This document shows positions 7,439 to 39,104 of a stretch of 43,381 bases of DNA, one piece after another. The notes beneath the pieces are model-generated. The model did no database searches and was not told the origin of the DNA. It saw only the letters and a program-made list of their open reading frames with translations. Source of the stretch: Candidatus Helarchaeota archaeon (GTDB lineage: Archaea > Asgardarchaeota > Lokiarchaeia > Helarchaeales > RDOG01); assembly GCA_029838215.1 (NCBI GenBank), contig JALGVI010000016.1, positions 1 through 43,381 of the forward strand, written 5' to 3'. Position 1 is the stretch's first letter. Each line of letters starts with the position of its first letter. Position numbers and translations under genes: made by a program.

Positions 7439-8758
7439 ATGTTTTTATTCAAAAACTTTATCAACCGGAATTGGAGACCTGATACTTTGGAATTTGAAAG
7501 AATACACGTAGAACACGTTGCCTTATTCGATAAGTTAATACAACTTTTTGCAGGGGGAAGACAGATCAAGAGATTTAATCCCGATGGGACTCGAGAATCA
7601 TTTATTTGGCCGTATTCATTTCCATTTATTGTTCGCCTCACAAAATGGCTAGATCGACACCAAATTCATCGGTATACAATGAAAAGGAAGGGTCCTTTAT
7701 TTTGGCTAGCGCGTGCTATGGGATTTCTTTTCGGCGGTTTGGCAATTTATTTTTCGGGTTGGACCGATCCCGTCATTCATAATATTAAATTTATTTATAA
7801 AAATCGGTTAAAACGCTACGATGAAAAAACGCGGAAACAAATTTTTAAAAACATCATATATCGAAACTGTCGTTACATGGCTCGATTATTAATTGAAGAT
7901 CTTTTGGTCTTTCCATCTTACGTTCACTATAAAAACTTGAAAGATAGAGATGGAATGAATCTCGAAAAATATAGACGTAAGTACGAACAATATTACGAAC
8001 TCAAGGGCAAGGAAAATTTGGATGCTGCCTTTGAAAAGTATGGAGGTGCAATACTTCTATACCTGCACACGAATTCGTTCATTCTCGGATCTTGCTATTT
8101 TGGTTTTCACGGTTATAATTGCATCATTCCAATTGATAGTCATGGAGTGAAGGCAATATCACGTTACATGAAGGGAAGCGGTCAGCATGTCATAGACGCT
8201 CATGACCCAAAAATCAAGAAGAAAATTGATAGATACTTGAAAAATAAAAAGAATCCCGTCTTCATATCAACAGCAGATATGGGGTATCCGAACCAAACAC
8301 TTCTTCCATTCTTTTCAGAACTATGTCGGACGCCTGTAGGACCAGCAGTCTTGGCGCAAAGATATAATCTTCCAGTCCTGCCAATGTGGGAAGAAACACA
8401 TCCAAAAAAATTCTACCACACGCTAAACATTGGAAAGGAAATCGATTTCATCAGGGATGAAAGTGTACCAAAAAGAGACAGGATATGCAAGAATTCAATT
8501 AAATGTAATAAAGAGATAGAAAAGATCATACTCAAAGACCCGGCAAAATGGTGCCTTCTTTCACAGGTTCATAATATACGGCGTTTTAATCCCGTGTTTG
8601 AAATTCAAGGATTAGGCGTCAATAAAATGCTCTTAAAACAGCTCGAATCATTTAAAATAACCATAAAAGAAAGTTACGAAGAAAATCGACAAGATGACAG
8701 GATAATAAAAGCCCTCGAGCGGTCTATTGAAAGTTTAAAGGCCTTAGAAAAATCCTGA
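7439..8758 (+). CDS. LpxL/HtrB-type lysophospholipid acyltransferase superfamily protein
   Basis: Contains GAILLYLH, ISTADMG, LPFFSELCRTPVGPAVLAQRYNLPVLP and IEKIILKDPAKWC. Start moved from the track's 7280, which overlaps the divergent gene, to the ATG at 7439. Confidence 0.7.
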   Translation: MFLFKNFINRNWRPDTLEFERIHVEHVALFDKLIQLFAGGRQIKRFNPDGTRESFIWPYSFPFIVRLTKWLDRHQIHRYTMKRKGPLFWLARAMGFLFGGLAIYFSGWTDPVIHNIKFIYKNRLKRYDEKTRKQIFKNIIYRNCRYMARLLIEDLLVFPSYVHYKNLKDRDGMNLEKYRRKYEQYYELKGKENLDAAFEKYGGAILLYLHTNSFILGSCYFGFHGYNCIIPIDSHGVKAISRYMKGSGQHVIDAHDPKIKKKIDRYLKNKKNPVFISTADMGYPNQTLLPFFSELCRTPVGPAVLAQRYNLPVLPMWEETHPKKFYHTLNIGKEIDFIRDESVPKRDRICKNSIKCNKEIEKIILKDPAKWCLLSQVHNIRRFNPVFEIQGLGVNKMLLKQLESFKITIKESYEENRQDDRIIKALERSIESLKALEKS

Positions 8759-8898
8759 CTCTCTAAAAACAAGAAATTCAAGCAGATTTAACGGATTTTA
8801 AAAAATAGGTCATTAATAAATGAAAAGATTTCACGAGAAAGACGAACACTTAGAAGTTAGTCACAATAGAAAAGCAACTTGGATTACTCAAAACACGA

Positions 8899-8970
8899 TC
8901 ACTTACCTTTCTGCTTGCGTCTTTTACGCGCTATCTTCCTGTTTCTTTTCTTCTTCCATTTTTGTCTGAT
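8899..8970 (-). CDS. rpl41e: Ribosomal protein eL41/eS32-like peptide (23 aa) with an apparent ATC start
   Basis: The minus strand translates to (I/M)RQKWKKKRNRKIARKRRKQKGK*, collinear with eukaryotic eL41 [25 protein letters not shown]. GGAGG lies 9 nt upstream, with a TATA/BRE further upstream. An in-frame TGA two codons upstream excludes an upstream ATG. Confidence 0.75.
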   Translation of the reverse strand: MRQKWKKKRNRKIARKRRKQKGK

Positions 8971-8979
8971 GATTCACGT

Positions 8980-9035
8980 CCTCCTTGCAATCAGTACAAT
9001 ATTCTAAGTGAGTTAATCAGTATTTTAAATTTTCG
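8980..9035 (-). promoter_or_regulatory. Putative BRE-TATA promoter and Shine-Dalgarno site for the eL41-like gene
   Basis: On the minus strand: CGAAAA (9035-9030), then TTTAAAATA (9029-9021), then AAGGAGG (8986-8980). Confidence 0.6.
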
Positions 9036-9138
9036 ATATTCGAATAGCTTTTAAGCTCTCCGTTTTTTTTTAAGATTAATTATAGATATTTGGAGATAAA
9101 TCAATTTATTTTTTTCTTTTAAATCATTTAATACGATT

Positions 9139-10017
9139 TCATTTTAGATTATCCTTTTGAAAATTATGGCTATTTTGTTTTAAATATTGTTTTTGAAGTT
9201 CGGTTTCCTTGAAGTATCGCGCCCAATCGCTATATTCACCATGATATACAAAAACGTATAGGGCATTAAAAATGTAGAAAACGGCGAAGATAAGCCAAAC
9301 AGTCCAAAAATTTGGATTAATTAACGTTGTAATCGCGCAAATGATAATCATGTAAATGACACCTGTCAAACCACCGGTCAGATAGCACATTCTTCGACCC
9401 TTGAAACCAATTTGCAAGAATTGGGCATAATTTTCAACCCAGCACGGCTCAAGCTTGTGAATCCAGAAAAAAGGTTCCACGTTATAGATTTTCTTCAACA
9501 CGTAATAATGAACAAACACGCGAATGCCTGCCATTGTCGTTATGGCGCTGGCGGTCCAAAGACCCAATCCAAGAAGGTATGTTAAAAGAAAAGCGAAGAA
9601 ATTTTGTCCTAAAAGCCAAAAAAACACTTCTTCGAAGAAGTAAACATCGAGAAGGCGAATTAATTCATTGAAAGTGTAGAAAAATTGCAAGAAAAATACA
9701 TTTTCTACGAAATTAAATAACCAGAAAAAGTTTAGAAGCATTCCAGCAATCAATGCCAGTATTCCAAACAGGAATCCCACGTTTTTCGAATAAATGTTAA
9801 AGGTAATTAGTGAGGTGCGTCGGATTCGTCCCAGTGGTTCGGCGAGTTCTTTTGGCACGCGGTCATATTTCAGTTTTACATCACGCATTATCGTCCGAAC
9901 ACGTCTTCGCTCTTGATCGCTTAAATAGCCTTTATTTTCTAACTGAAGTATTTCCTTTAACAGTTCTTCATCCATGAAATTCATTCCATAACCATATCTG
10001 TCTACCGATACTTTCAC
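9139..10017 (-). CDS. Hypothetical multi-pass membrane protein coupled to the thiolase operon
   Basis: A soluble N-terminal segment is followed by several hydrophobic helices. The GTG start overlaps the thiolase TGA (GTGA). Confidence 0.7.
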   Translation of the reverse strand: MKVSVDRYGYGMNFMDEELLKEILQLENKGYLSDQERRRVRTIMRDVKLKYDRVPKELAEPLGRIRRTSLITFNIYSKNVGFLFGILALIAGMLLNFFWLFNFVENVFFLQFFYTFNELIRLLDVYFFEEVFFWLLGQNFFAFLLTYLLGLGLWTASAITTMAGIRVFVHYYVLKKIYNVEPFFWIHKLEPCWVENYAQFLQIGFKGRRMCYLTGGLTGVIYMIIICAITTLINPNFWTVWLIFAVFYIFNALYVFVYHGEYSDWARYFKETELQKQYLKQNSHNFQKDNLK

Positions 10018-11201: not shown

Positions 11202-11596
11202 TCAGTCTCCTCCTGCAAGATCTTGAATTTGGGACCGTAATATAGCATTCCATCCTTATCAGACATCCTACGTATTACGACCTCAACGGGCATTCCTATC
11301 TTGAGATCTTTTTCAGATTTAATCTCGGTAAATTGAGACATTAGCCGACCGCCTCCATCTAATTCAACGACACCAATTGCTAAAGGCTTGTCAAATTCTT
11401 TCGGCAAATAATGATTGACAATGAAGCTCAAAACTTTCCCAGTTGAACTCATTTGAATTTCCTCCAATTCTTGGCTTCCGCATTCAACACAAACCCGTCT
11501 TAAAGGATAATTCACGTGCTCACATTTTAGACATTTCAAACCTTTTAATTGAAATATGGATTTCTTTTCACGCCAAATATAAGGTAAATCGGTCAT
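11198..11596 (-). CDS. DUF35-type Zn-ribbon/OB-fold protein
   Basis: Contains CLKC...YPLRRVCVEC, GKVLSF, IGVVELDGGGR and IGMPVEVVIRR. Overlaps the thiolase start by 4 nt. Confidence 0.95.
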   Translation of the reverse strand: MTDLPYIWREKKSIFQLKGLKCLKCEHVNYPLRRVCVECGSQELEEIQMSSTGKVLSFIVNHYLPKEFDKPLAIGVVELDGGGRLMSQFTEIKSEKDLKIGMPVEVVIRRMSDKDGMLYYGPKFKILQEETE

Positions 11597-11614
11597 TGTA
11601 ATTCATCCTTTCAA

Positions 11615-12619
11615 TCAAATTAAACCCAAATATTGAAGATACGTTGGATATGAAATCAACGCCTTATTTTTTATGAAATGATCAACCGCAGGTTTTGCCC
11701 GACCGTTCTGAATGGCTGAAGTTGTTTTCAAGCTAAACGCATGAGTGCCACCAGATCCCCAACTTGCACAAAGAATGGTTTGATCGGGTTCAGCATTATC
11801 AAGGACTTTCGCCAATCCCATCAGCACGGAAGAAACCCCTATATCACCAAAATATTGCACGATATTTCCGACTTCTAATTTCTTAAGATCCAACTTGACG
11901 GATTTAGCTATTTGAATGGGAATTCTACCATCGTTTTGCTGGAAAATGACGTGATCATAGTCGTTAACTTCTCGGTTGACTTGGTTTGTTAATTGCTTGA
12001 TCGCATTTTTCATCGTCTTGATGATTCCAAACTGACGCACGAAACGGTCATCACCAGCATGATATTCGCCATCAACAGGTCGCCATCGTTCCGAGATCTC
12101 AGATGAAAATGAAGTGAATCCTTCAAATACGGCGATGGGTTCCAGATTACCAATTATCCAACTCGTGCCTCCCGCACCAAATGACCCTTCTAGATTTGAT
12201 CCGGGTCTCGACAACAGGGAATCAGCCGTGACCACCATGCTAAGGTCGTTTGGATTCAACTGACAATGATTCGTCGCTTCTTCAAGGGCAAAGCTTCCTG
12301 CCCGAGCAGAACCCCCTAAATCGACATTTTTTGATTGTTCGTCAAGACCCAACATGGAAAGGAGTAATGTCGATATCTGTTTTTCAATGAAAGGTGAAGA
12401 AACAGAAGCAAAATATAACGATTTGATTCTTGCAATCTCCAGCCCAGAACTCAGCGAATTCTTTGCCGCAGAAAGAGCTAACGTGATGGTATCTTCATCC
12501 CTATATGGCACGGACTTTTCTTTCACTCCAGCAGAACTCTTATTCCAAACTTTTTTGAGTTCGCCAGATGAAATGCGATACCTTGGCACGTAACATCCGT
12601 AGCTGATAATGCCAACCAT
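11615..12619 (-). CDS. HMG-CoA synthase-like protein with catalytic residues substituted (PhlA-like pseudoenzyme)
   Basis: Contains GIISYGCYVPRYRI, EDTITLA, GSFGAGG and GDIG, consistent with the HMGS fold. It has SVS in place of SES, SARAG in place of ACKAG, and FQQN in place of FHQP. Confidence 0.85.
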   Translation of the reverse strand: MVGIISYGCYVPRYRISSGELKKVWNKSSAGVKEKSVPYRDEDTITLALSAAKNSLSSGLEIARIKSLYFASVSSPFIEKQISTLLLSMLGLDEQSKNVDLGGSARAGSFALEEATNHCQLNPNDLSMVVTADSLLSRPGSNLEGSFGAGGTSWIIGNLEPIAVFEGFTSFSSEISERWRPVDGEYHAGDDRFVRQFGIIKTMKNAIKQLTNQVNREVNDYDHVIFQQNDGRIPIQIAKSVKLDLKKLEVGNIVQYFGDIGVSSVLMGLAKVLDNAEPDQTILCASWGSGGTHAFSLKTTSAIQNGRAKPAVDHFIKNKALISYPTYLQYLGLI

Positions 12620-31945: not shown

Positions 31946-33499
31946 ATGTTTTTCCCTGCATTTGATATTATCATTGAAATTATTGTAGTAGCCATATTCA
32001 TCTTGGTCATATACACGATCGCTAGCGAGAAGATACACCGTGCTCTCATCGCTTTAATAGGTGCTGCCATAGTTTACATCATTCTAATGTTTTCCGGAAA
32101 AGTAACGATCCTTGAAATCATTGGTTTCGCTTTTGGGACTTCACAAGATGGATTTACGAACTTTCACTCAATTTTACTGATTTTCGGAATGATGCTTATT
32201 GTTGAGGTCTGTAATTCTGCGGGTGTTTTCCAATTTATAGCATTTTTTCTAGTGCAAAAGGCAAGAGGTAATTCGACGGTTATTTTGATATTGATATGTG
32301 TGTTATCCGCAATAATGTCAGCGATTTTAAACAATATCTTAACAGTTATCATATTGATCCCACTCATAATTCAAATATCTCGTATTTTGAACATTGATCC
32401 TGAAAAATACATAATAAGTGCCGCTATTTTAGTGAACGTAGGGGGATTATTCTTTCAGATTAGTTCCATTCCCAACATTTTAATAACAAATTACTTCCAA
32501 ATCTCATTTGCGGAGTTTTTGATCAACGTTGGTTTTTTCAGCATGATCATTCTCGGTATTTCAATCATGTTATTTGTAATCGCGTTTCGAAAAAGTCTAA
32601 AAGTGCCTGAAGACCGACTTGTTAAATACCTTCGAGAAATCGATCCATGGAACTTTGTATCATCAAAGAAACTCTTTTTTGAAGCATCTATAATCTTAAT
32701 TATCGTGATAACGTTATTCATCCTACCAATGAAGGAAATAACCTTTGGAATTTTATCGACAGATATCATTGCATTAATCGGTGGTGTCACGCTTTTGATT
32801 ATTTCAAGGCTAGATGCCAGAGAGACCTTAAAAAAAATAGATTTTTCCCTTATTATTTATTTACTTGCCATTTTCATAGTCGTTGGAGGTCTTGAAGCGG
32901 TCGGGCTTGTTGCTCAGGTGGCGGCAGCGATGTTAGGTATCCAAGCATTTTTCGGAAACACGCCATTAGTGACGGTTCTCCTAACGCTTTGGTTATCCGC
33001 GGGATTAAGTTCTATTGTCGACAACATACCGATCACGCAGACATTAATTCCAACAATCGGTCTCGTGACCCAGGGATATCCACATTTTATAGCCCGACAA
33101 ACGCAATATAGTCTTGCATTCGGAGCCAATCTAGGTGACAATCTAACACCAATGGGTGATAATATCCTTGTAATGAACATTGCAGAAGAAAATGGACGCC
33201 CAATCACGCAAAAACAATTCTTTCGGATTGGATTTATCACCACCATCATTCAATTAATGATCGTAACGATGTTTTACATCTATCTTTTAGAAATCATCTT
33301 GGGAATAATCCTGACGATCTTTATCGCATCCATCACGGGTATTATTTTATATTTGTATTATCTGAACAAGAAGAAATCAATTTTTAGGTCGTTTTTCGAT
33401 TTATTTTCAACATTTTGGAGTAATATTAAGATTTCTTTAAAAAAAATAACAAAAAGAAAAGGAGAAAACGATGACACCATCAAACTTGGAAAAAATTAA
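31946..33499 (+). CDS. ArsB/NhaD/SLC13 (IT superfamily, P-protein-like) permease
   Basis: Contains SEKIHR, LIFGMM...G.FQF.A, LNNILTV, SSIPNILI, IDFSLIIY, SSIVDNIP and GANLGDNLTPMG. Confidence 0.88.
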   Translation: MFFPAFDIIIEIIVVAIFILVIYTIASEKIHRALIALIGAAIVYIILMFSGKVTILEIIGFAFGTSQDGFTNFHSILLIFGMMLIVEVCNSAGVFQFIAFFLVQKARGNSTVILILICVLSAIMSAILNNILTVIILIPLIIQISRILNIDPEKYIISAAILVNVGGLFFQISSIPNILITNYFQISFAEFLINVGFFSMIILGISIMLFVIAFRKSLKVPEDRLVKYLREIDPWNFVSSKKLFFEASIILIIVITLFILPMKEITFGILSTDIIALIGGVTLLIISRLDARETLKKIDFSLIIYLLAIFIVVGGLEAVGLVAQVAAAMLGIQAFFGNTPLVTVLLTLWLSAGLSSIVDNIPITQTLIPTIGLVTQGYPHFIARQTQYSLAFGANLGDNLTPMGDNILVMNIAEENGRPITQKQFFRIGFITTIIQLMIVTMFYIYLLEIILGIILTIFIASITGIILYLYYLNKKKSIFRSFFDLFSTFWSNIKISLKKITKRKGENDDTIKLGKN

Positions 33500-34400
33500 G
33501 GAAAAAATACCGGAATTATTGTACGGTGCGGTATTTTATACGAACGGATTGATTATTGAAAGACTTTTAGATCCTTCATTTAACATCACGAAAATTGGCT
33601 CCATTCTGAGCGAAATCATCAAGAATATAAAGAATTTTCTCGCAGAAATAAAAGAAGAAACAACAGAATACAAGAGAATAACTTTTCTGGTCGGGAATAA
33701 GAAGATTGCAGTTTTACGAATTGGGGAGGACACGCATGCCATATTCGTATTTGAAAACCTATGGGAACCAATGCAAATCATCGTAAAAAAAATTAAAGAA
33801 GACTTGATCCACATTTCCGAAATTATAGACATCCCACTCTCGGAAATTGAAAAAAATAAGTTAATGGAACAAATTGAAAATCTCAAAAGAGAAAAGAAAC
33901 AACTTGAGAAAAAAGAGAAGGAACTCAAGGAAAATCTTGAAACATTAGAGGAACGGTGCGAATTTCGACAATCATTAAAGCAAGATCTTGAAGAAGACGT
34001 TGATGTTCTAGCATCCAAAAGAGATAAGATTACAGATAGATTAAAAAGCGTGAATGAAATCTATGATGACTACGAATCTCGAGAAAAACTCACGGATCGT
34101 CAAGAGATCTTGTTCAAGCTGACAGGAGCAGAAAAACAACGACTAGAACACAGATTGGATTCACTAAACCAAAGAATTGCAGAAGAAAAACAAAAGAAAG
34201 AAAAACTTCTCATGAAAATTGAGAGAGAAGAAAAAGAAGACGCAAAAAAAAGAGAGTTATTAATTGAAAACACAGAAAAAATCAAAGAGAAAAAAGAAGA
34301 AATTCTTGAAAAAGAAATAGATCTTGCCGAAAAAGCACAAGAAATAGGAAAAAAAGAATTGAAACCAGAAAACCTTCTTGATACAGAAACGAAAGAATAG
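33471..34400 (+). CDS. Roadblock-like N-terminal domain plus long charged coiled coil
   Basis: The N-terminal 115 aa (YGAVFYTNGLII...RITFLVGNKKIAVLRIGEDTHAIFVF) has roadblock-like strand order, followed by E/K-rich heptads. An AGGAG SD lies upstream, and the gene overlaps the permease by 29 nt. Confidence 0.65.
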   Translation: MTPSNLEKIKEKIPELLYGAVFYTNGLIIERLLDPSFNITKIGSILSEIIKNIKNFLAEIKEETTEYKRITFLVGNKKIAVLRIGEDTHAIFVFENLWEPMQIIVKKIKEDLIHISEIIDIPLSEIEKNKLMEQIENLKREKKQLEKKEKELKENLETLEERCEFRQSLKQDLEEDVDVLASKRDKITDRLKSVNEIYDDYESREKLTDRQEILFKLTGAEKQRLEHRLDSLNQRIAEEKQKKEKLLMKIEREEKEDAKKRELLIENTEKIKEKKEEILEKEIDLAEKAQEIGKKELKPENLLDTETKE

Positions 34401-34404
34401 ATGA

Positions 34405-35574
34405 CTAAACGGAAAAATCTACAAACATTAAATAGAATTTTCTTAGTTTCTTGGATTCAATGATTTTATTTCCTTTTATTGAGAGTGATTTAACGAGCAA
34501 TCGTGTCGTCCGCTGTTCTCCCATGAACCCTAGTTTTCCCAAAACTTTCTCAGCATATTGTGGTAATAAAGCATTCACGATACCAACCGTTTTATGAAGG
34601 GAACGTAAAATAGTCGCAACGAAACCCTTTTTCAATTCCATTCCTTCGGGGTTAGATTCAATGTCTTCCGAAAATGCAAGATTCTGAAAGAAAGCCATTG
34701 GAATATAGCCACTAACCATGTAGATTTCGCTAATTTCCGAACTCAAGGTTGCTTTTATTTCGCCATCATCATCCCATACCCAAACGTGATATCCGAATGG
34801 AGTGTCCTTAAATTGCTCACGTGATTTATAATCGCGCTTTTCTAATGTCATCATTTCGTTCGTGTATTTTTTAAATTCCTCGAGTGTCCACGTTCGAGCC
34901 AGATCTAAACGCTTTGTATAATCATTCAAGAGCTTCACGATTGTGGGATAGTCTTCAGGCGTGGCTTCACGGATGGTTCCACCTGCCAATTCATGATTTT
35001 TCAATCTGGCCACGATCCTCGCAGCCTGGGCTTCTACAACGTTGAGGTTGCGTGCGTCACGTAGCATGTCCACGCCTTCTTTTCCCAGAAGCTTTATCTT
35101 TCCCTCAACATTTTTATTCATTACAACCATTTTGTGATGTTCTTTCAAAAATTCAATCTCAGGAGTATTTTTGCTTGCAATGGGCAGGCAATAAATGAAA
35201 TCCGCTTCCCTTTTCGCAATTCGTGAGAATAATTCTGTTGCAAGACGATCTAGAATTTCAGCACCTTCATCCCAATAATCAGGATCGATTCCGAGAAATC
35301 CAATCACGGCGGCCTTCATTGGCTCACCTTTAAACCTGCAAGATATTATTTCAGCACCTAACGTTCCAACGACTTTATCATCAACTCGGGCTTCCAGTAC
35401 TAATTCAGGATCGCTAAAAACAGAATCCAAGCTGAATTCCGTAAAAAACGCATCATAGATCGTTCCGATATCTTGGTCCATCGTATCTCTAAATTTTACT
35501 CGAATTCTTCGATATAAATCAGCCAAATATTCAAAATCCCGCGTTAACGGCTGAATTTCAACATCCATCTTCAT
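34405..35574 (-). CDS. Tandem-GNAT acyltransferase resembling N-myristoyltransferase
   Basis: Two GNAT halves. [34 protein letters not shown] and VNALL...LGKLGF parallel NMT C-domain segments. The start is probably ATG 35574 or 35568 (AGGTG SD), not the track's 35601. Confidence 0.7.
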   Translation of the reverse strand: [389 protein letters not shown]

Positions 35575-35744
35575 CCACCTGCGTGAAGCGTTAAAAAACA
35601 TGTTTCAGATATTCTAATTTTTTAATAAATTGGTTTTAATTGAATTTAAAGATATTGATTTTCTTAACGAATTATCCTTTGTCTAAGAATATTTATTATC
35701 ATTCCTGCTTTTATTAAACTAAATAAATCAGTAGGAGAGGAAAC

Positions 35745-37567: not shown

Positions 37568-38317
37568 TCATTTCAAAATTTTTTTTACTGCATCAACAAC
37601 TTTTGGAACGAAATCACCCGCTTTTTTCCAGATCCGTAAATGTGCTTTGTTGTCGAACGGAGTTTCACCGAGATTCAAGAGAATCAGCTTGGCACCATTT
37701 TTAAGAGCATATTCAGGCATGTATGCTGCGGGTGTCACGACGAGAGAACTGCCAATCACGAAAAAAACGTCGCAGTTTTGAGAATGTCTCACTGCTTCAG
37801 AGATTTCTTTATCAGGAAGAGGATCGCCAAAATTCACTACACTTGAGATAATTCGACCACCACAGTGAGGACACTTCGGTTGCCCTTTTAATACAGGGTC
37901 AGTTCTATAACCATTTCCCCAGACAGTTTTGTCCCATCCGGCTTCTTCGTGGGTCATTTGACGATCGCAATCTACACATCTCATTAAATACGAATTTCCG
38001 TGAAGCTCCGCCAATTTTTCAGGTTTAATTCCTGATTTTAGATGAAGTCCATCCACGTTTTGAGATATGAGAAAGTCCAATTTTCCAATTTTCTGCAACC
38101 CCACGATAGCAAGGTGCGCATCGTTCGGTTTTGCCAAATGCCAAGGAACCTTGCTCCGTGGTGGGGGCAATCCTTTTTCTCTTCGGGTCCAGACACCATC
38201 GGGACCGCGATAATCAGGCAAACCACTTTCAGTACTGATTCCTGCACCCGTAAAAATAACTAATTTCTCGCATTTTGCGATCCATTCAGCCGCCAAATTA
38301 ACTTGCTCGTCACTCAT
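37568..38317 (-). CDS. Sir2-family NAD-dependent deacylase with class IV (SIRT6-like) features
   Basis: Contains [38 protein letters not shown], Zn ligands CVDC/CPHC, GSSL and NL. Confidence 0.93.
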   Translation of the reverse strand: [249 protein letters not shown]

Positions 38318-38405: not shown

Positions 38406-39104
38406 ATGGTTTTGTCAATGTCTCGTTTTAATGAATACAAGGAATTAGTTCTCAAAACAGCTCAGTACATGCAAGAAAAAAAACTTGTCATAGGGTCAAG
38501 CGGGAACATCTCCTGCTTAATTCCGGGTGAAAATCTAGTAGCAGTAACCCCTTCAGGATTAGAATATGACCATTTATCATCATCAGACATGTGCATCGTT
38601 GATCTTGATTTTAATAAAGTAGAGGGTCCACACATGCCATCGGTAGAAACTCGAATGCACCTTGCAGTTTACAAGAATCGACCAGATGTAAACGCCGTCA
38701 TTCACACACATCAATGCTACGCAAGCGTTTTGAGCATAATAGGGGAAGAAATTCCCGCAATTTACGACGAACAAGTAGCATACATCGGCTACGAAGTCGC
38801 ATTGGTAAAATATGGAATGTCCGGGAGCCCAGAATTAGTAGAAAATGTAACAGAGAAATTGGGAAATAATTGTAACGCTTACATCATCCAAAATCACGGA
38901 GCACTCTGCTTGGGAATAAACATGAAAGAAGCACTAAAAGCCGTTGAGGTCTTAGAACGGGTGGCAATGAATTATTATCTTGCACTCGTTTCGGGCAAAC
39001 CCATTACAAAGGTTCCCGAACCTATTGTCAACACGATGATGGGAAAATTAAGAACAGAACAGAAAAAGGAAAAACGTCGTAAGAAAAAAGTGGCTCGCCA
39101 ATAG
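38406..39104 (+). CDS. Class II aldolase/adducin family (FucA-like)
   Basis: Contains SGNIS, VTPSG, PSVETRMH, IHTH and QNHG, the Zn-binding His triad pattern. Confidence 0.92.
   Translation: MVLSMSRFNEYKELVLKTAQYMQEKKLVIGSSGNISCLIPGENLVAVTPSGLEYDHLSSSDMCIVDLDFNKVEGPHMPSVETRMHLAVYKNRPDVNAVIHTHQCYASVLSIIGEEIPAIYDEQVAYIGYEVALVKYGMSGSPELVENVTEKLGNNCNAYIIQNHGALCLGINMKEALKAVEVLERVAMNYYLALVSGKPITKVPEPIVNTMMGKLRTEQKKEKRRKKKVARQ

What the first reader, a model, noticed from the sequence alone, without database searches (positions are those of the whole stretch)
34405..35574. N-myristoyltransferase-like tandem GNAT protein in an apparent Asgard archaeon
Seen in sequence: several segments align by eye with human NMT1 as I recall it. 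[31 protein letters not shown] matches [65 protein letters not shown] matches [45 protein letters not shown] matches [29 protein letters not shown] matches FNALDLMENKTFLEKLKF. Established: NMT is a two-GNAT enzyme regarded as eukaryotic, and it lipidates N-terminal Gly of Arf-family GTPases and other proteins. Inference: this may be an archaeal relative of NMT that could acylate proteins. Caveat: the CoA-pyrophosphate loop is acidic here (DYWDEG versus KLRSKR), so the substrate may differ.
Basis: partly seen in the sequence, partly recalled or inferred. Interest (0 to 1): 0.8.

Follow-up and report, generated by a model that had tools for sequence, protein, structure and literature searches.

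The report
Degenerate NMT-type double-GNAT paralogue, Helarchaeales
This gene of an Asgard (Helarchaeales) archaeon encodes a real but distant relative of N-myristoyltransferase, the eukaryotic enzyme that puts a fatty chain on protein ends. This copy has lost the coenzyme-A-binding loop and the free C-terminal end that the enzyme needs, so it is probably not a working myristoyltransferase.

Summary
The ORF is real: 34405-35601(-), with the likely start at 35568, giving 387 aa. Its likeness to NMT is more than chance. A profile of its family puts only NMTs at the top of the PDB (E 2e-17, both halves colinear). A profile of its own clade does the same (E 3.8e-8). The AF2 model (pLDDT 94.7) matches NMTs best (Foldseek E 4e-19; Z 29.5, against 23.3 for the best non-NMT tandem GNAT).

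It is not a Pfam-level NMT. Its nearest predicted structures are uncharacterised, mostly bacterial double GNATs of about 350 aa. NMT-type double GNATs in archaea and bacteria were published in 2025 (PMC12219266). This scan also found them earlier on other DNA, in at least 6 genomes.

New here:
- Helarchaeales genomes carry 2-5 paralogues.
- The target's clade alone lacks GNAT motif A: 0 of 12 members against 44 of 49 others. Loop charge is -6 in the target.
- The target runs 4 residues past the position of NMT's catalytic C-terminal carboxylate. A paralogue in the same genome (contig C164) ends exactly there.
- The target clade's N-terminal GNAT is relaxed.

Most likely it is a non-catalytic or mechanistically altered paralogue. 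No substrate is shown.

The parts
34405..35568 (-). Coding sequence of the NMT-type tandem-GNAT protein. The most likely start is the ATG at 35568, giving 387 aa plus the stop at 34405-34407. In-frame alternatives are ATG 35574 (389 aa, P0001, the numbering used in this report) and ATG 35601 (398 aa).
   Evidence: Orthologues P0003 and P0005 are 387 aa and align from MDVEIQ.
35575..35580 (-). Shine-Dalgarno-like AGGTGG, 6 nt upstream of the ATG at 35568.
   Evidence: Read directly from the sequence. Function inferred.
35125..35568 (-). N-terminal GNAT domain (P0001 residues about 3-150), equivalent to the acyl-CoA-binding half of NMT. It is the least conserved part within the target's clade.
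   Evidence: Pfam Acetyltransf_9 1.6e-6. Profile alignment to NMT residues about 55-166. Mean pairwise identity 0.27, against 0.37 for the C-terminal GNAT.
35248..35286 (-). Degenerate motif A / pyrophosphate-loop region (D97-D109, [13 protein letters not shown]; net charge -6). It stands where other clades have [QR]xxGx[GAQ] and NMT has KLRSKRxAP.
   Evidence: 0 of 12 clade members keep the motif, against 44 of 49 others. DSSP of the model shows the helix starting at residue 98, directly after beta4, against an 8-residue loop in the paralogue model.
34987..35124 (-). Inter-domain linker (residues about 151-196) with the clade-conserved KNVExxxKxLG...N...AQAA block.
   Evidence: K154, E157, K161, G164, N178 and A189 invariant or nearly so.
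34420..34986 (-). C-terminal GNAT domain (residues 197-385), equivalent to NMT_C. Residue V385 superposes on the C-terminal residue of every NMT.
   Evidence: Pfam NMT_C E 0.0019 at positions 24-67. VIA ranges: model ..385 aligns with Hs 496, Ca 451, Af 492, Sc 455 and Lm 421, and with the deltaC3 and deltaC2 truncations of HsNMT1 at 382 and 383.
34408..34419 (-). Clade-specific 4-residue C-terminal extension (D386-F387-S388-V389; clade pattern [DENG][FY]x[IV]) beyond the position of NMT's catalytic carboxylate.
   Evidence: The same-genome paralogue ends exactly at the NMT end point.

Best explanation
The gene encodes a divergent paralogue ('clade T') of a prokaryotic NMT-type tandem-GNAT family, restricted to the Helarchaeales order. 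It is truly homologous to eukaryotic N-myristoyltransferase and keeps the whole two-domain fold.

Shown here: clade T lacks two parts of the NMT catalytic apparatus. The beta4-alpha3 CoA pyrophosphate loop (GNAT motif A) is replaced by an acidic helical segment. The chain does not stop at the position of NMT's catalytic C-terminal carboxylate but runs 3-4 residues further. The N-terminal, donor-binding GNAT is the least conserved part of the clade. The linker and the C-terminal GNAT, which is the acceptor-binding half in NMT, are the best conserved.

Inferred: the protein no longer works as a canonical acyl-CoA-dependent N-acyltransferase. Most likely it is a non-catalytic ligand- or peptide-binding or regulatory paralogue. 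Less likely, it is an enzyme with a rebuilt mechanism, for example the Asp386 side chain as base and a donor held differently. The paralogues that keep motif A and the NMT end point, such as the one on contig C164 of the same genome, are the plausible active acyltransferases. Their acceptor is unknown.
For: Homology:
- The family profile against the PDB gives 35 NMTs at the top, E 2e-17, with both halves in order.
- The clade-T-only profile gives 17 NMTs at the top, E 3.8e-8.
- The AF2 model has pLDDT 94.7.
- Foldseek's top 50 are all NMT, E 4e-19 to 7e-17.
- VIA gives Z 29.5, with 336 residues aligned at rmsd 3.1. The best non-NMT is Z 23.3.

Degeneration:
- Motif A is absent in 12 of 12 clade T members and present in 44 of 49 others. 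Mean loop charge is -2.75 against +2.0, and -6 in the target.
- In the model the helix starts at residue 98, straight after beta4. The paralogue model has an 8-residue loop there.
- Model residue 385 equals the NMT C-terminus in every species, and tracks the deltaC2 and deltaC3 truncations. The paralogue's last residue, 358, does the same.
- The ratio of N-terminal to C-terminal GNAT identity is 0.27/0.37 in clade T, 0.46/0.41 in the canonical clade and 0.58/0.56 in other Asgard clades.
- Several positions invariant in the other clades vary in clade T: the motif A Gly, Gly at residue 137, and the aromatic residue next to the end.

Still under selection:
- Orthologues occur in all three families of the order.
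- 12 columns are invariant within the clade.
Against: - In GNATs the pyrophosphate is bound by backbone amides, and NMT itself lacks the motif's Gly. Loss of the sequence motif alone does not prove loss of CoA binding.
- The loop geometry comes from a predicted model, not from an experiment.
- Asp or Glu at position 386 (8 of 12 members) could replace the terminal carboxylate.
- F93-L94 of the target match the oxyanion-hole pair of NMT (F170-L171 in yeast).
- Support for clade T is moderate (SH-aLRT 84, quick tree).
- I had no model coordinates, so the pocket and the path of the extension could not be inspected.
- No biochemical data exist for any prokaryotic member.
Confidence: 0.55

Rival explanations
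1. It is an active archaeal protein N-terminal acyltransferase, a functional NMT analogue. It would use an acyl-CoA and acylate N-terminal Gly or Lys of Asgard proteins such as small GTPases.
For: NMT is the closest characterised relative by sequence profile and by fold. F93-L94 align with the oxyanion-hole residues. The genome is rich in small GTPases, with 70 matches to the Arf model, and in acyl-CoA enzymes, with 9 ACAD paralogues.
Against: - Motif A is lost and the loop is acidic.
- The chain runs 4 residues past the catalytic C-terminus.
- The N-terminal GNAT is relaxed.
- Neither Pfam NMT model passes its cut-off.
- The best Arf-like protein is a 321-aa fusion without Gly-2.
- Published work found no recognisable myristoylation sites on Asgard Arfs, and their membrane binding did not depend on myristate (PMC11914678; bioRxiv 2024.02.28.582541).
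- A crude count finds MG starts in 4.3% of ORFs, below the bulk Gly frequency of 6.1%.
Confidence: 0.2
2. It is a small-molecule N-acyltransferase, acting for example on an amino sugar or an amino acid, like other tandem GNATs (GlcN N-acetyltransferase, MshD, Eis, HisAT). On this reading the NMT likeness reflects only shared ancestry of the fold.
For: - Tandem GNATs acting on small molecules score high: MAB_4324 Z 23.3, fungal GlcN N-acetyltransferase 22.2, Eis2 21.6, C. acetobutylicum GlcN N-acetyltransferase 20.2.
- The nearest predicted structures are uncharacterised bacterial double GNATs.
- Two other branches of the family sit beside a polysaccharide deacetylase: the own-genome paralogue and P0024 on a 56% GC contig.
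Against: The same loss of the CoA loop argues against any CoA-dependent transfer by this copy. The target itself has no deacetylase neighbour and no conserved operon. Sequence profiles rank NMT far above all small-molecule GNATs.
Confidence: 0.15
3. It transfers from a donor other than CoA, such as aminoacyl-tRNA (as in FemABX and L/F-transferase) or another activated acyl carrier. This would use the GNAT scaffold without motif A.
For: GNAT-fold enzymes that do not use CoA also lack motif A (established knowledge of the Fem and L/F-transferase families). FemX and FemA appear among the fold matches (Z 15.1 and 14.3).
Against: The Fem matches are far weaker than NMT and have high rmsd (6.5-6.8). 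There is no coiled-coil tRNA-binding insert and no supporting gene context.
Confidence: 0.05

Closest known systems
Eukaryotic glycylpeptide N-tetradecanoyltransferase (NMT; EC 2.3.1.97; Pfam PF01233 + PF02799; e.g. yeast Nmt1p 2nmt, Candida 1iyl, human NMT1 5o9s)
   Same: Same tandem-GNAT fold, colinear from the first GNAT strand to NMT's last residue (model 2-385 onto HsNMT1 153-496; Z 27-29.5). Significant profile similarity in both halves. The IGFLG / INFLC strand and the IRxxxxxDxxxIxxLLNxY block are shared.
   Different: - Identity is 14-17%, and the protein is below both Pfam cut-offs.
- It has no N-terminal ribosome-binding extension.
- The basic CoA loop KLRSKRxAP is replaced by the acidic [10 protein letters not shown].
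- The chain extends 4 residues beyond the catalytic C-terminal carboxylate.
- The host is prokaryotic, and no substrate is known.
Prokaryotic 'NMT-type' double-GNAT proteins, defined in PMC12219266 (Nat Commun 2025) as double GNATs whose C-terminus ends at the active site. Includes uncharacterised bacterial families of about 350 aa, Asgard proteins, and the target's own paralogue on contig C164.
   Same: Same family by sequence and by predicted structure (TM 0.78/0.86 to a bacterial cluster). Same length class. All are uncharacterised.
   Different: The other members keep motif A and end at the NMT end point, or one residue after it. The target's clade does neither.
Other tandem GNATs of solved structure: MAB_4324 (7q3a), Eis/Eis2 (3sxn, 9mva), GlcN N-acetyltransferases (4zm6, 5kf1), MshD (1ozp), HisAT/NAT16 (9emd), FemX/FemA (6snr, 1lrz)
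   Same: Two fused GNAT domains. As a rule only one of the two is catalytic.
   Different: Fold scores are lower (Z 23.3 down to 14.3, against 26.5-29.5 for NMT). Profile hits are weak or absent (first non-NMT double GNAT at E 1.2e-6 and 7.7e-4).

Membership tests
Eukaryotic NMT (EC 2.3.1.97; PF01233 + PF02799) | Tandem GNAT fold colinear with NMT over the whole catalytic core | tested here: met
   Foldseek's top 50 are all NMT, E 4e-19 to 7e-17, TM 0.63-0.70. VIA Z 29.5, with 336 residues aligned at rmsd 3.1, model 1-385 onto Candida NMT 79-451.
Eukaryotic NMT (EC 2.3.1.97; PF01233 + PF02799) | Passes the curated Pfam cut-offs for NMT (25 bits) and NMT_C (27.9 bits) | tested here: not met
   NMT_C scores 18.3 bits (E 0.0019) and PF01233 gives no hit. 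No match over the cut-off exists anywhere in the own genome.
Eukaryotic NMT (EC 2.3.1.97; PF01233 + PF02799) | Specific remote homology to NMT rather than to GNATs in general | tested here: met
   Family profile: the top 35 PDB sequences are all NMT, best E 2e-17. Clade-only profile: the top 17 are all NMT, best E 3.8e-8.
Eukaryotic NMT (EC 2.3.1.97; PF01233 + PF02799) | Basic acyl-CoA pyrophosphate-binding loop after beta4 (KLRSKRxAP, the GNAT motif A position) | tested here: not met
   The target has [13 protein letters not shown], net charge -6. None of the 12 clade members keeps [QR]xxGx[GAQ]. The model shows no loop between beta4 and alpha3.
Eukaryotic NMT (EC 2.3.1.97; PF01233 + PF02799) | Chain ends at the active site, so that the C-terminal carboxylate can act as catalytic base | tested here: not met
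   V385 superposes on the last residue of every NMT, and 4 more residues follow. The same-genome paralogue does end there.
Eukaryotic NMT (EC 2.3.1.97; PF01233 + PF02799) | Oxyanion hole from the backbone of the beta-bulge pair (F170-L171 in yeast) | tested here: inconclusive
   The target's IGFLG aligns with INFLC. The F position varies within the clade (commonest residue in 25% of members). The bulge could not be inspected without coordinates.
Eukaryotic NMT (EC 2.3.1.97; PF01233 + PF02799) | Deep pocket that measures a C14 acyl chain | not testable with these tools
No pocket analysis was possible.
Eukaryotic NMT (EC 2.3.1.97; PF01233 + PF02799) | Transfers myristate to N-terminal Gly of proteins | not testable with these tools
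   This needs an enzyme assay. Indirectly: no Gly-2 Arf was found, and a crude count shows no excess of MG starts.
Eukaryotic NMT (EC 2.3.1.97; PF01233 + PF02799) | N-terminal Lys-rich, ribosome-binding extension before the catalytic core | tested here: not met
   The protein begins at the core: model residue 2 aligns with HsNMT1 residue 153.
Prokaryotic NMT-type double GNAT (sensu PMC12219266) | Double GNAT whose C-terminus ends at the active site as in NMT1 | tested here: inconclusive
   The C-terminal strand reaches the NMT end point at residue 385, but 4 more residues follow. Where they lie is unknown. The paralogue meets the criterion.
Prokaryotic NMT-type double GNAT (sensu PMC12219266) | Sequence and structure kinship with the double-GNAT families of about 350-390 aa in bacteria and archaea | tested here: met
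   24 representatives at E below 1e-3. Full-length matches in every genome of the order, and weaker ones in other Asgard families. Atlas TM 0.78/0.86 to bacterial clusters.
Eis-type, MshD-type or GlcN N-acetyltransferase tandem GNATs | Closest fold and profile match | tested here: inconclusive
   Z 23.3 to 17.2 with higher rmsd, all below NMT. Profile E-values are 1e-6 or worse. This shows a shared superfamily, not the nearest family.
FemABX / aminoacyl-tRNA-dependent GNAT-fold transferases | Closest fold match and a tRNA-binding insert | tested here: inconclusive
   FemX Z 15.1 (rmsd 6.5) and FemA Z 14.3 (rmsd 6.8). No extra domain appears in the model.

The most novel reading that the evidence does not exclude
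Clade T is a conserved 'pseudo-NMT'. On this reading it is a tandem-GNAT protein that has given up acyl-CoA chemistry but kept the acceptor-binding half. It would work in Helarchaeales as a reader, chaperone or regulator of protein N-termini or of acylated ligands, alongside active NMT-type paralogues. Alternatively, it would be an acyltransferase with a rebuilt active site that uses Asp386 and a donor other than CoA. Either would be the first functional split described within the NMT-type family, in the archaeal group nearest to eukaryotes.
Probability: 0.2. Interest if true: 0.6.

Novelty: new variant of a known kind. Interest (0 to 1): 0.35.

Why it matters
NMT was long held to be a eukaryotic invention, so prokaryotic relatives bear on how protein lipidation arose during eukaryogenesis. 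That such NMT-type double GNATs exist in archaea and bacteria is already in print (PMC12219266). This scan has also found them repeatedly.

What this locus adds is narrower:
- Helarchaeales have expanded the family to several paralogues per genome.
- One conserved paralogue line has dropped the two catalytic hallmarks while keeping the fold.

This warns against reading every Asgard 'NMT-like' gene as a lipidating enzyme. It also points to which copies are worth assaying: those with motif A and the NMT end point, such as the one on contig C164.

Tried and rejected
- **Heterodimer test.** I tested whether a clade T protein and a canonical-clade protein bind, using the tandem pair of genome G123 (alignments A4 and A5). 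Complex prediction gave no verdict, score 0.00. This counts neither for nor against binding.
- **Expression.** No RNA holder was listed. One hydrothermal-vent metagenome run holds a 0.10 share of the words, and I did not lay it.
- **Gene context.**
  - The target is monocistronic. It is convergent with a 309-aa gene that has no Pfam match, and divergent from an SDR gene.
  - No neighbour is conserved across clade T loci except a class II aldolase, which looks like leftover synteny.
  - The acyl-CoA dehydrogenase neighbour has 9 paralogues in the genome, so the adjacency is weak evidence.
  - The Sir2 gene at 37568-38317 is not found beside clade T genes in the other genomes.
- **Substrate hints.** The best Arf-like protein is a longin-like fusion without Gly-2. 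A crude first-ATG count gives 117 MG starts in 2749 ORFs, with no excess, and the start calls are unreliable.
- **Wider searches.**
  - The search for related loci failed on A1, which has no conserved stretch.
  - The search for related loci found nothing for P0024.
  - The word-based homologue search with A1 gave only 6 hits.
- **Tree with eukaryotic NMTs.** Not possible, because no tool returned eukaryotic NMT sequences as usable ids.
- **Literature.** No held paper has both 'N-myristoyltransferase' and 'Asgard'. Meinnel et al. 2020 is not held.
- **NCBIfam.** No family matched.
- **Rejected readings.** A closer kinship to Eis or to Fem than to NMT is rejected.
Full report
**The gene.** An ORF on the minus strand runs from 35601 to 34405, 398 aa from the first ATG.
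- Its closest relatives, P0003 and P0005, are 387 aa and align from MDVEIQ.
- An AGGTGG lies 6 nt before the ATG at 35568. The likely product is therefore 387 aa.
- I number residues on the 389-aa form (P0001), which was the form folded.
- The gene stands alone. It is convergent with a 309-aa gene that has no Pfam match, and divergent from an SDR gene.

**Is the likeness to NMT real?**
- *Single sequence: only a hint.*
  - Pfam gives a plain GNAT in the N-terminal half (Acetyltransf_9, 1.6e-6).
  - It gives a sub-threshold NMT_C match (18.3 bits against a cut-off of 27.9; E 0.0019) at residues 202-246 of the 398-aa form.
  - The only PDB sequence hit is Candida NMT, at E 0.74, in the matching position.
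- *Relatives are rare.* There are 3 among 5.8 billion clustered proteins and 24 representatives among 1.84 billion. Every member that carries a name is a 'Candidatus Helarchaeota/Helarchaeales archaeon' hypothetical protein.
- *Profiles are significant.*
  - A profile of 23 members (A1) puts 35 NMT sequences at the top of the PDB, best E 2e-17. It gives two colinear matches, one in each GNAT half.
  - A profile of the target's own clade (A2) still puts 17 NMTs first, best E 3.8e-8.
The fourth lies within the colinear structural superposition.
- *Fold.*
  - The AlphaFold2 model is confident (pLDDT 94.7, pTM 0.91).
  - Foldseek's top 50 solved structures are all NMTs, E 4e-19 to 7e-17.
  - An independent all-against-representatives alignment ranks NMT first (Z 26.9 and 26.5). 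Other tandem GNATs follow: MAB_4324 23.3, a GlcN N-acetyltransferase 22.2, Eis2 21.6, HisAT 15.1 and FemX 15.1.
  - In the second look the best NMT reaches Z 29.5, with 336 residues aligned at rmsd 3.1.

**What family is it in?**
- A search of 400 genomes of the phylum found strong full-length matches only in the window's own order.
  - These lie in seven genomes of three families, with 2-5 copies in each.
  - Weaker, nearly full-length matches (open frames of 360-390 aa) lie in other Asgard families.
- The proteins of those other Asgard families, and the metagenomic protein P0024, pass the Pfam NMT cut-off at 32-47 bits. The Helarchaeales proteins do not.
- P0024 sits on a contig of 56% GC, so it comes from a quite different organism.
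- In the ESM Atlas, the model's nearest predicted structures are uncharacterised, mostly bacterial double GNATs of about 350 aa (TM 0.78/0.86 and 0.77/0.85). They are slightly nearer than the eukaryotic NMT clusters (0.71/0.79 and 0.75/0.61). The feature search agrees.
- This matches earlier reports of this scan on other genomes.
- It also matches a published statement. NMT-type double GNATs, defined as those whose C-terminus ends at the active site, were 'surprisingly' found in archaea and bacteria. The paper's supplementary table of compared proteins includes Thorarchaeota and Euryarchaeota entries (PMC12219266).
- The existence of such proteins is therefore not new.

**What is special about this copy?** A tree of 62 family members (quick IQ-TREE) separates several Helarchaeales clades.
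- *The target's clade.* The target lies in a clade of 12 different sequences, here called clade T (SH-aLRT 84). It is present in all three families of the order.
- *First departure: the CoA loop.*
  - Clade T alone lacks GNAT motif A. None of the 12 members has [QR]xxGx[GAQ] after beta4, against 44 of 49 other members.
  - The segment is acidic: mean net charge -2.75 against +2.0, and -6 in the target ([13 protein letters not shown]). Three members carry a 16-residue insert there.
  - In the model the helix begins at residue 98, straight after beta4. The model of the same-genome paralogue has the usual 8-residue loop, bearing RRKKIA, much like NMT's RSKRxA.
- *Second departure: the C-terminus.*
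  - Model residue V385 superposes on the last residue of every NMT: human 496, Candida 451, Aspergillus 492, yeast 455 and Leishmania 421.
  - The register is exact. Against the deltaC3 and deltaC2 truncations of human NMT1 the alignment ends at 382 and 383.
  - The target then continues with D386-F387-S388-V389. The clade pattern is [DENG][FY]x[IV].
  - The paralogue on contig C164 ends exactly at the NMT end point: residue 358 against 496, 356 against deltaC2 and 355 against deltaC3.
  - Every other clade ends there or one residue later. The canonical clade has an invariant Y-x-R end.
  - In NMT that terminal carboxylate is the catalytic base. This is established knowledge, restated in PMC12219266.
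- *Third departure: a relaxed N-terminal half.*
  - Within clade T the N-terminal GNAT is the least conserved part: mean pairwise identity 0.27, against 0.37 for the C-terminal GNAT and 0.44 for the linker.
  - In the canonical clade the N- and C-terminal GNAT values are 0.46 and 0.41. In the other Asgard clade they are 0.58 and 0.56.
  - Several positions invariant elsewhere vary in clade T: the motif A Gly, a Gly at residue 137, and the aromatic residue next to the end. Clade T has its own invariant set in the linker and the C-terminal GNAT.

**Reading.**
- Shown: this is a true homologue of NMT with the full fold, conserved as a protein. It lacks the canonical donor loop and the free carboxylate at the catalytic position.
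- Inferred: it does not work as an acyl-CoA-dependent N-acyltransferase of the NMT kind. I put about 55% on a non-catalytic or mechanistically altered paralogue.
- The rivals get:
  - about 20% for an active protein acyltransferase;
  - about 15% for a small-molecule acyltransferase;
  - about 5% for a donor other than CoA.
- Caveats:
  - Pyrophosphate binding in GNATs uses backbone amides, and NMT itself lacks the motif's glycine.
  - Asp or Glu 386 (8 of 12 members) could stand in for the carboxylate.
  - The loop geometry is a prediction.
  - I could not inspect coordinates, so the acyl pocket remains untested.

**Context and substrates.**
- No operon partner is conserved. A single-copy class II aldolase recurs near family members in four loci, which looks like old synteny.
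- In genome G123 a canonical gene and a clade T gene lie in tandem.
- In G128 an AMP-binding acyl-CoA synthetase directly precedes the canonical gene.
- The Sir2 gene 2 kb away in this window is not found beside clade T genes elsewhere. The 'writer/eraser' idea noted on this window is therefore not supported by conservation.
- The genome has 70 matches to the Arf model. The best is a 321-aa fusion with an N-terminal longin-like part and no Gly-2.
- Published work on Asgard Arfs found no recognisable myristoylation sites (PMC11914678; bioRxiv 2024.02.28.582541).

**Verdict.** This is a new variant (a degenerate paralogue line) of a kind already described and already met several times in this scan. 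Interest is moderate to low.

Noticed in passing
G000 contig C164:8332-9408(+) = L002:1030-2106: A second NMT-type double GNAT in the same genome (358 aa). It keeps an NMT-like basic loop (RRKKIA) and ends exactly at NMT's C-terminal position (model pLDDT 94.1, Z 29.4 to NMT). It is the better candidate for an active enzyme.
   Followed up: yes
L002:2140-2970(+), and L065:786-1685 beside L065:1716-2807: A polysaccharide deacetylase (PF01522) lies directly beside the C164 paralogue. A homologous deacetylase (E 6e-9) lies beside the distant family member P0024, on a 56% GC contig. This recalls NodB/NodA-type de-N-acetylation followed by N-acylation of an amino sugar.
   Followed up: partly
G123 contig C35:9656-10768(-) and 11422-12606(-) = L048:6654-7769 and 8405-9625: A canonical-clade gene and a clade T gene lie in tandem on one strand. 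Genomes of the order hold 2-5 paralogues each.
   Followed up: partly
L049:8804-10837(-), upstream of L049:7640-8767(-) (genome G128): An AMP-binding acyl-CoA synthetase (PF00501) directly precedes the canonical NMT-type gene on the same strand. This hints at a supply of acyl-CoA.
   Followed up: no
window 37568-38317(-): A Sir2-family gene (possible deacylase) lies about 2 kb from the target. The genome has 3 paralogues, and the gene is not found beside clade T genes in the other genomes.
   Followed up: partly
window 38406-39104(+); L046:4697-5374; L047:9356-10033; L049:10902-11567: A class II aldolase (PF00596), single-copy in this genome, recurs within 0-3 kb of NMT-type genes in four loci of the order. 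This is probably a remnant of synteny.
   Followed up: partly
G000 contig C83:27215-28180(-) = L053:1489-2454: The best Arf-like GTPase of the genome (163.7 bits) is the C-terminal half of a 321-aa protein whose N-terminal domain looks longin- or roadblock-like. Four more small-GTPase matches lie within 3 kb on C83, among 70 in the genome.
   Followed up: no
window 33471-34400(+), and L002:146-1009(+): Both NMT-type genes of this genome have a neighbour without any Pfam match. One is a 309-aa protein with a long charged coiled-coil tail. The other is a 287-aa protein with a Lys-rich start. By eye their globular parts recall roadblock or longin domains. This was not tested.
   Followed up: no
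G000 contig C45:14533-14742(-) = L044:1022-1228: A 69-75-aa fragment matching the last 60-75 positions of the family profile lies in an ORF that starts about 20 bases from the end of contig C45. It may be the missing canonical-clade copy, or only a short ORF.
   Followed up: no
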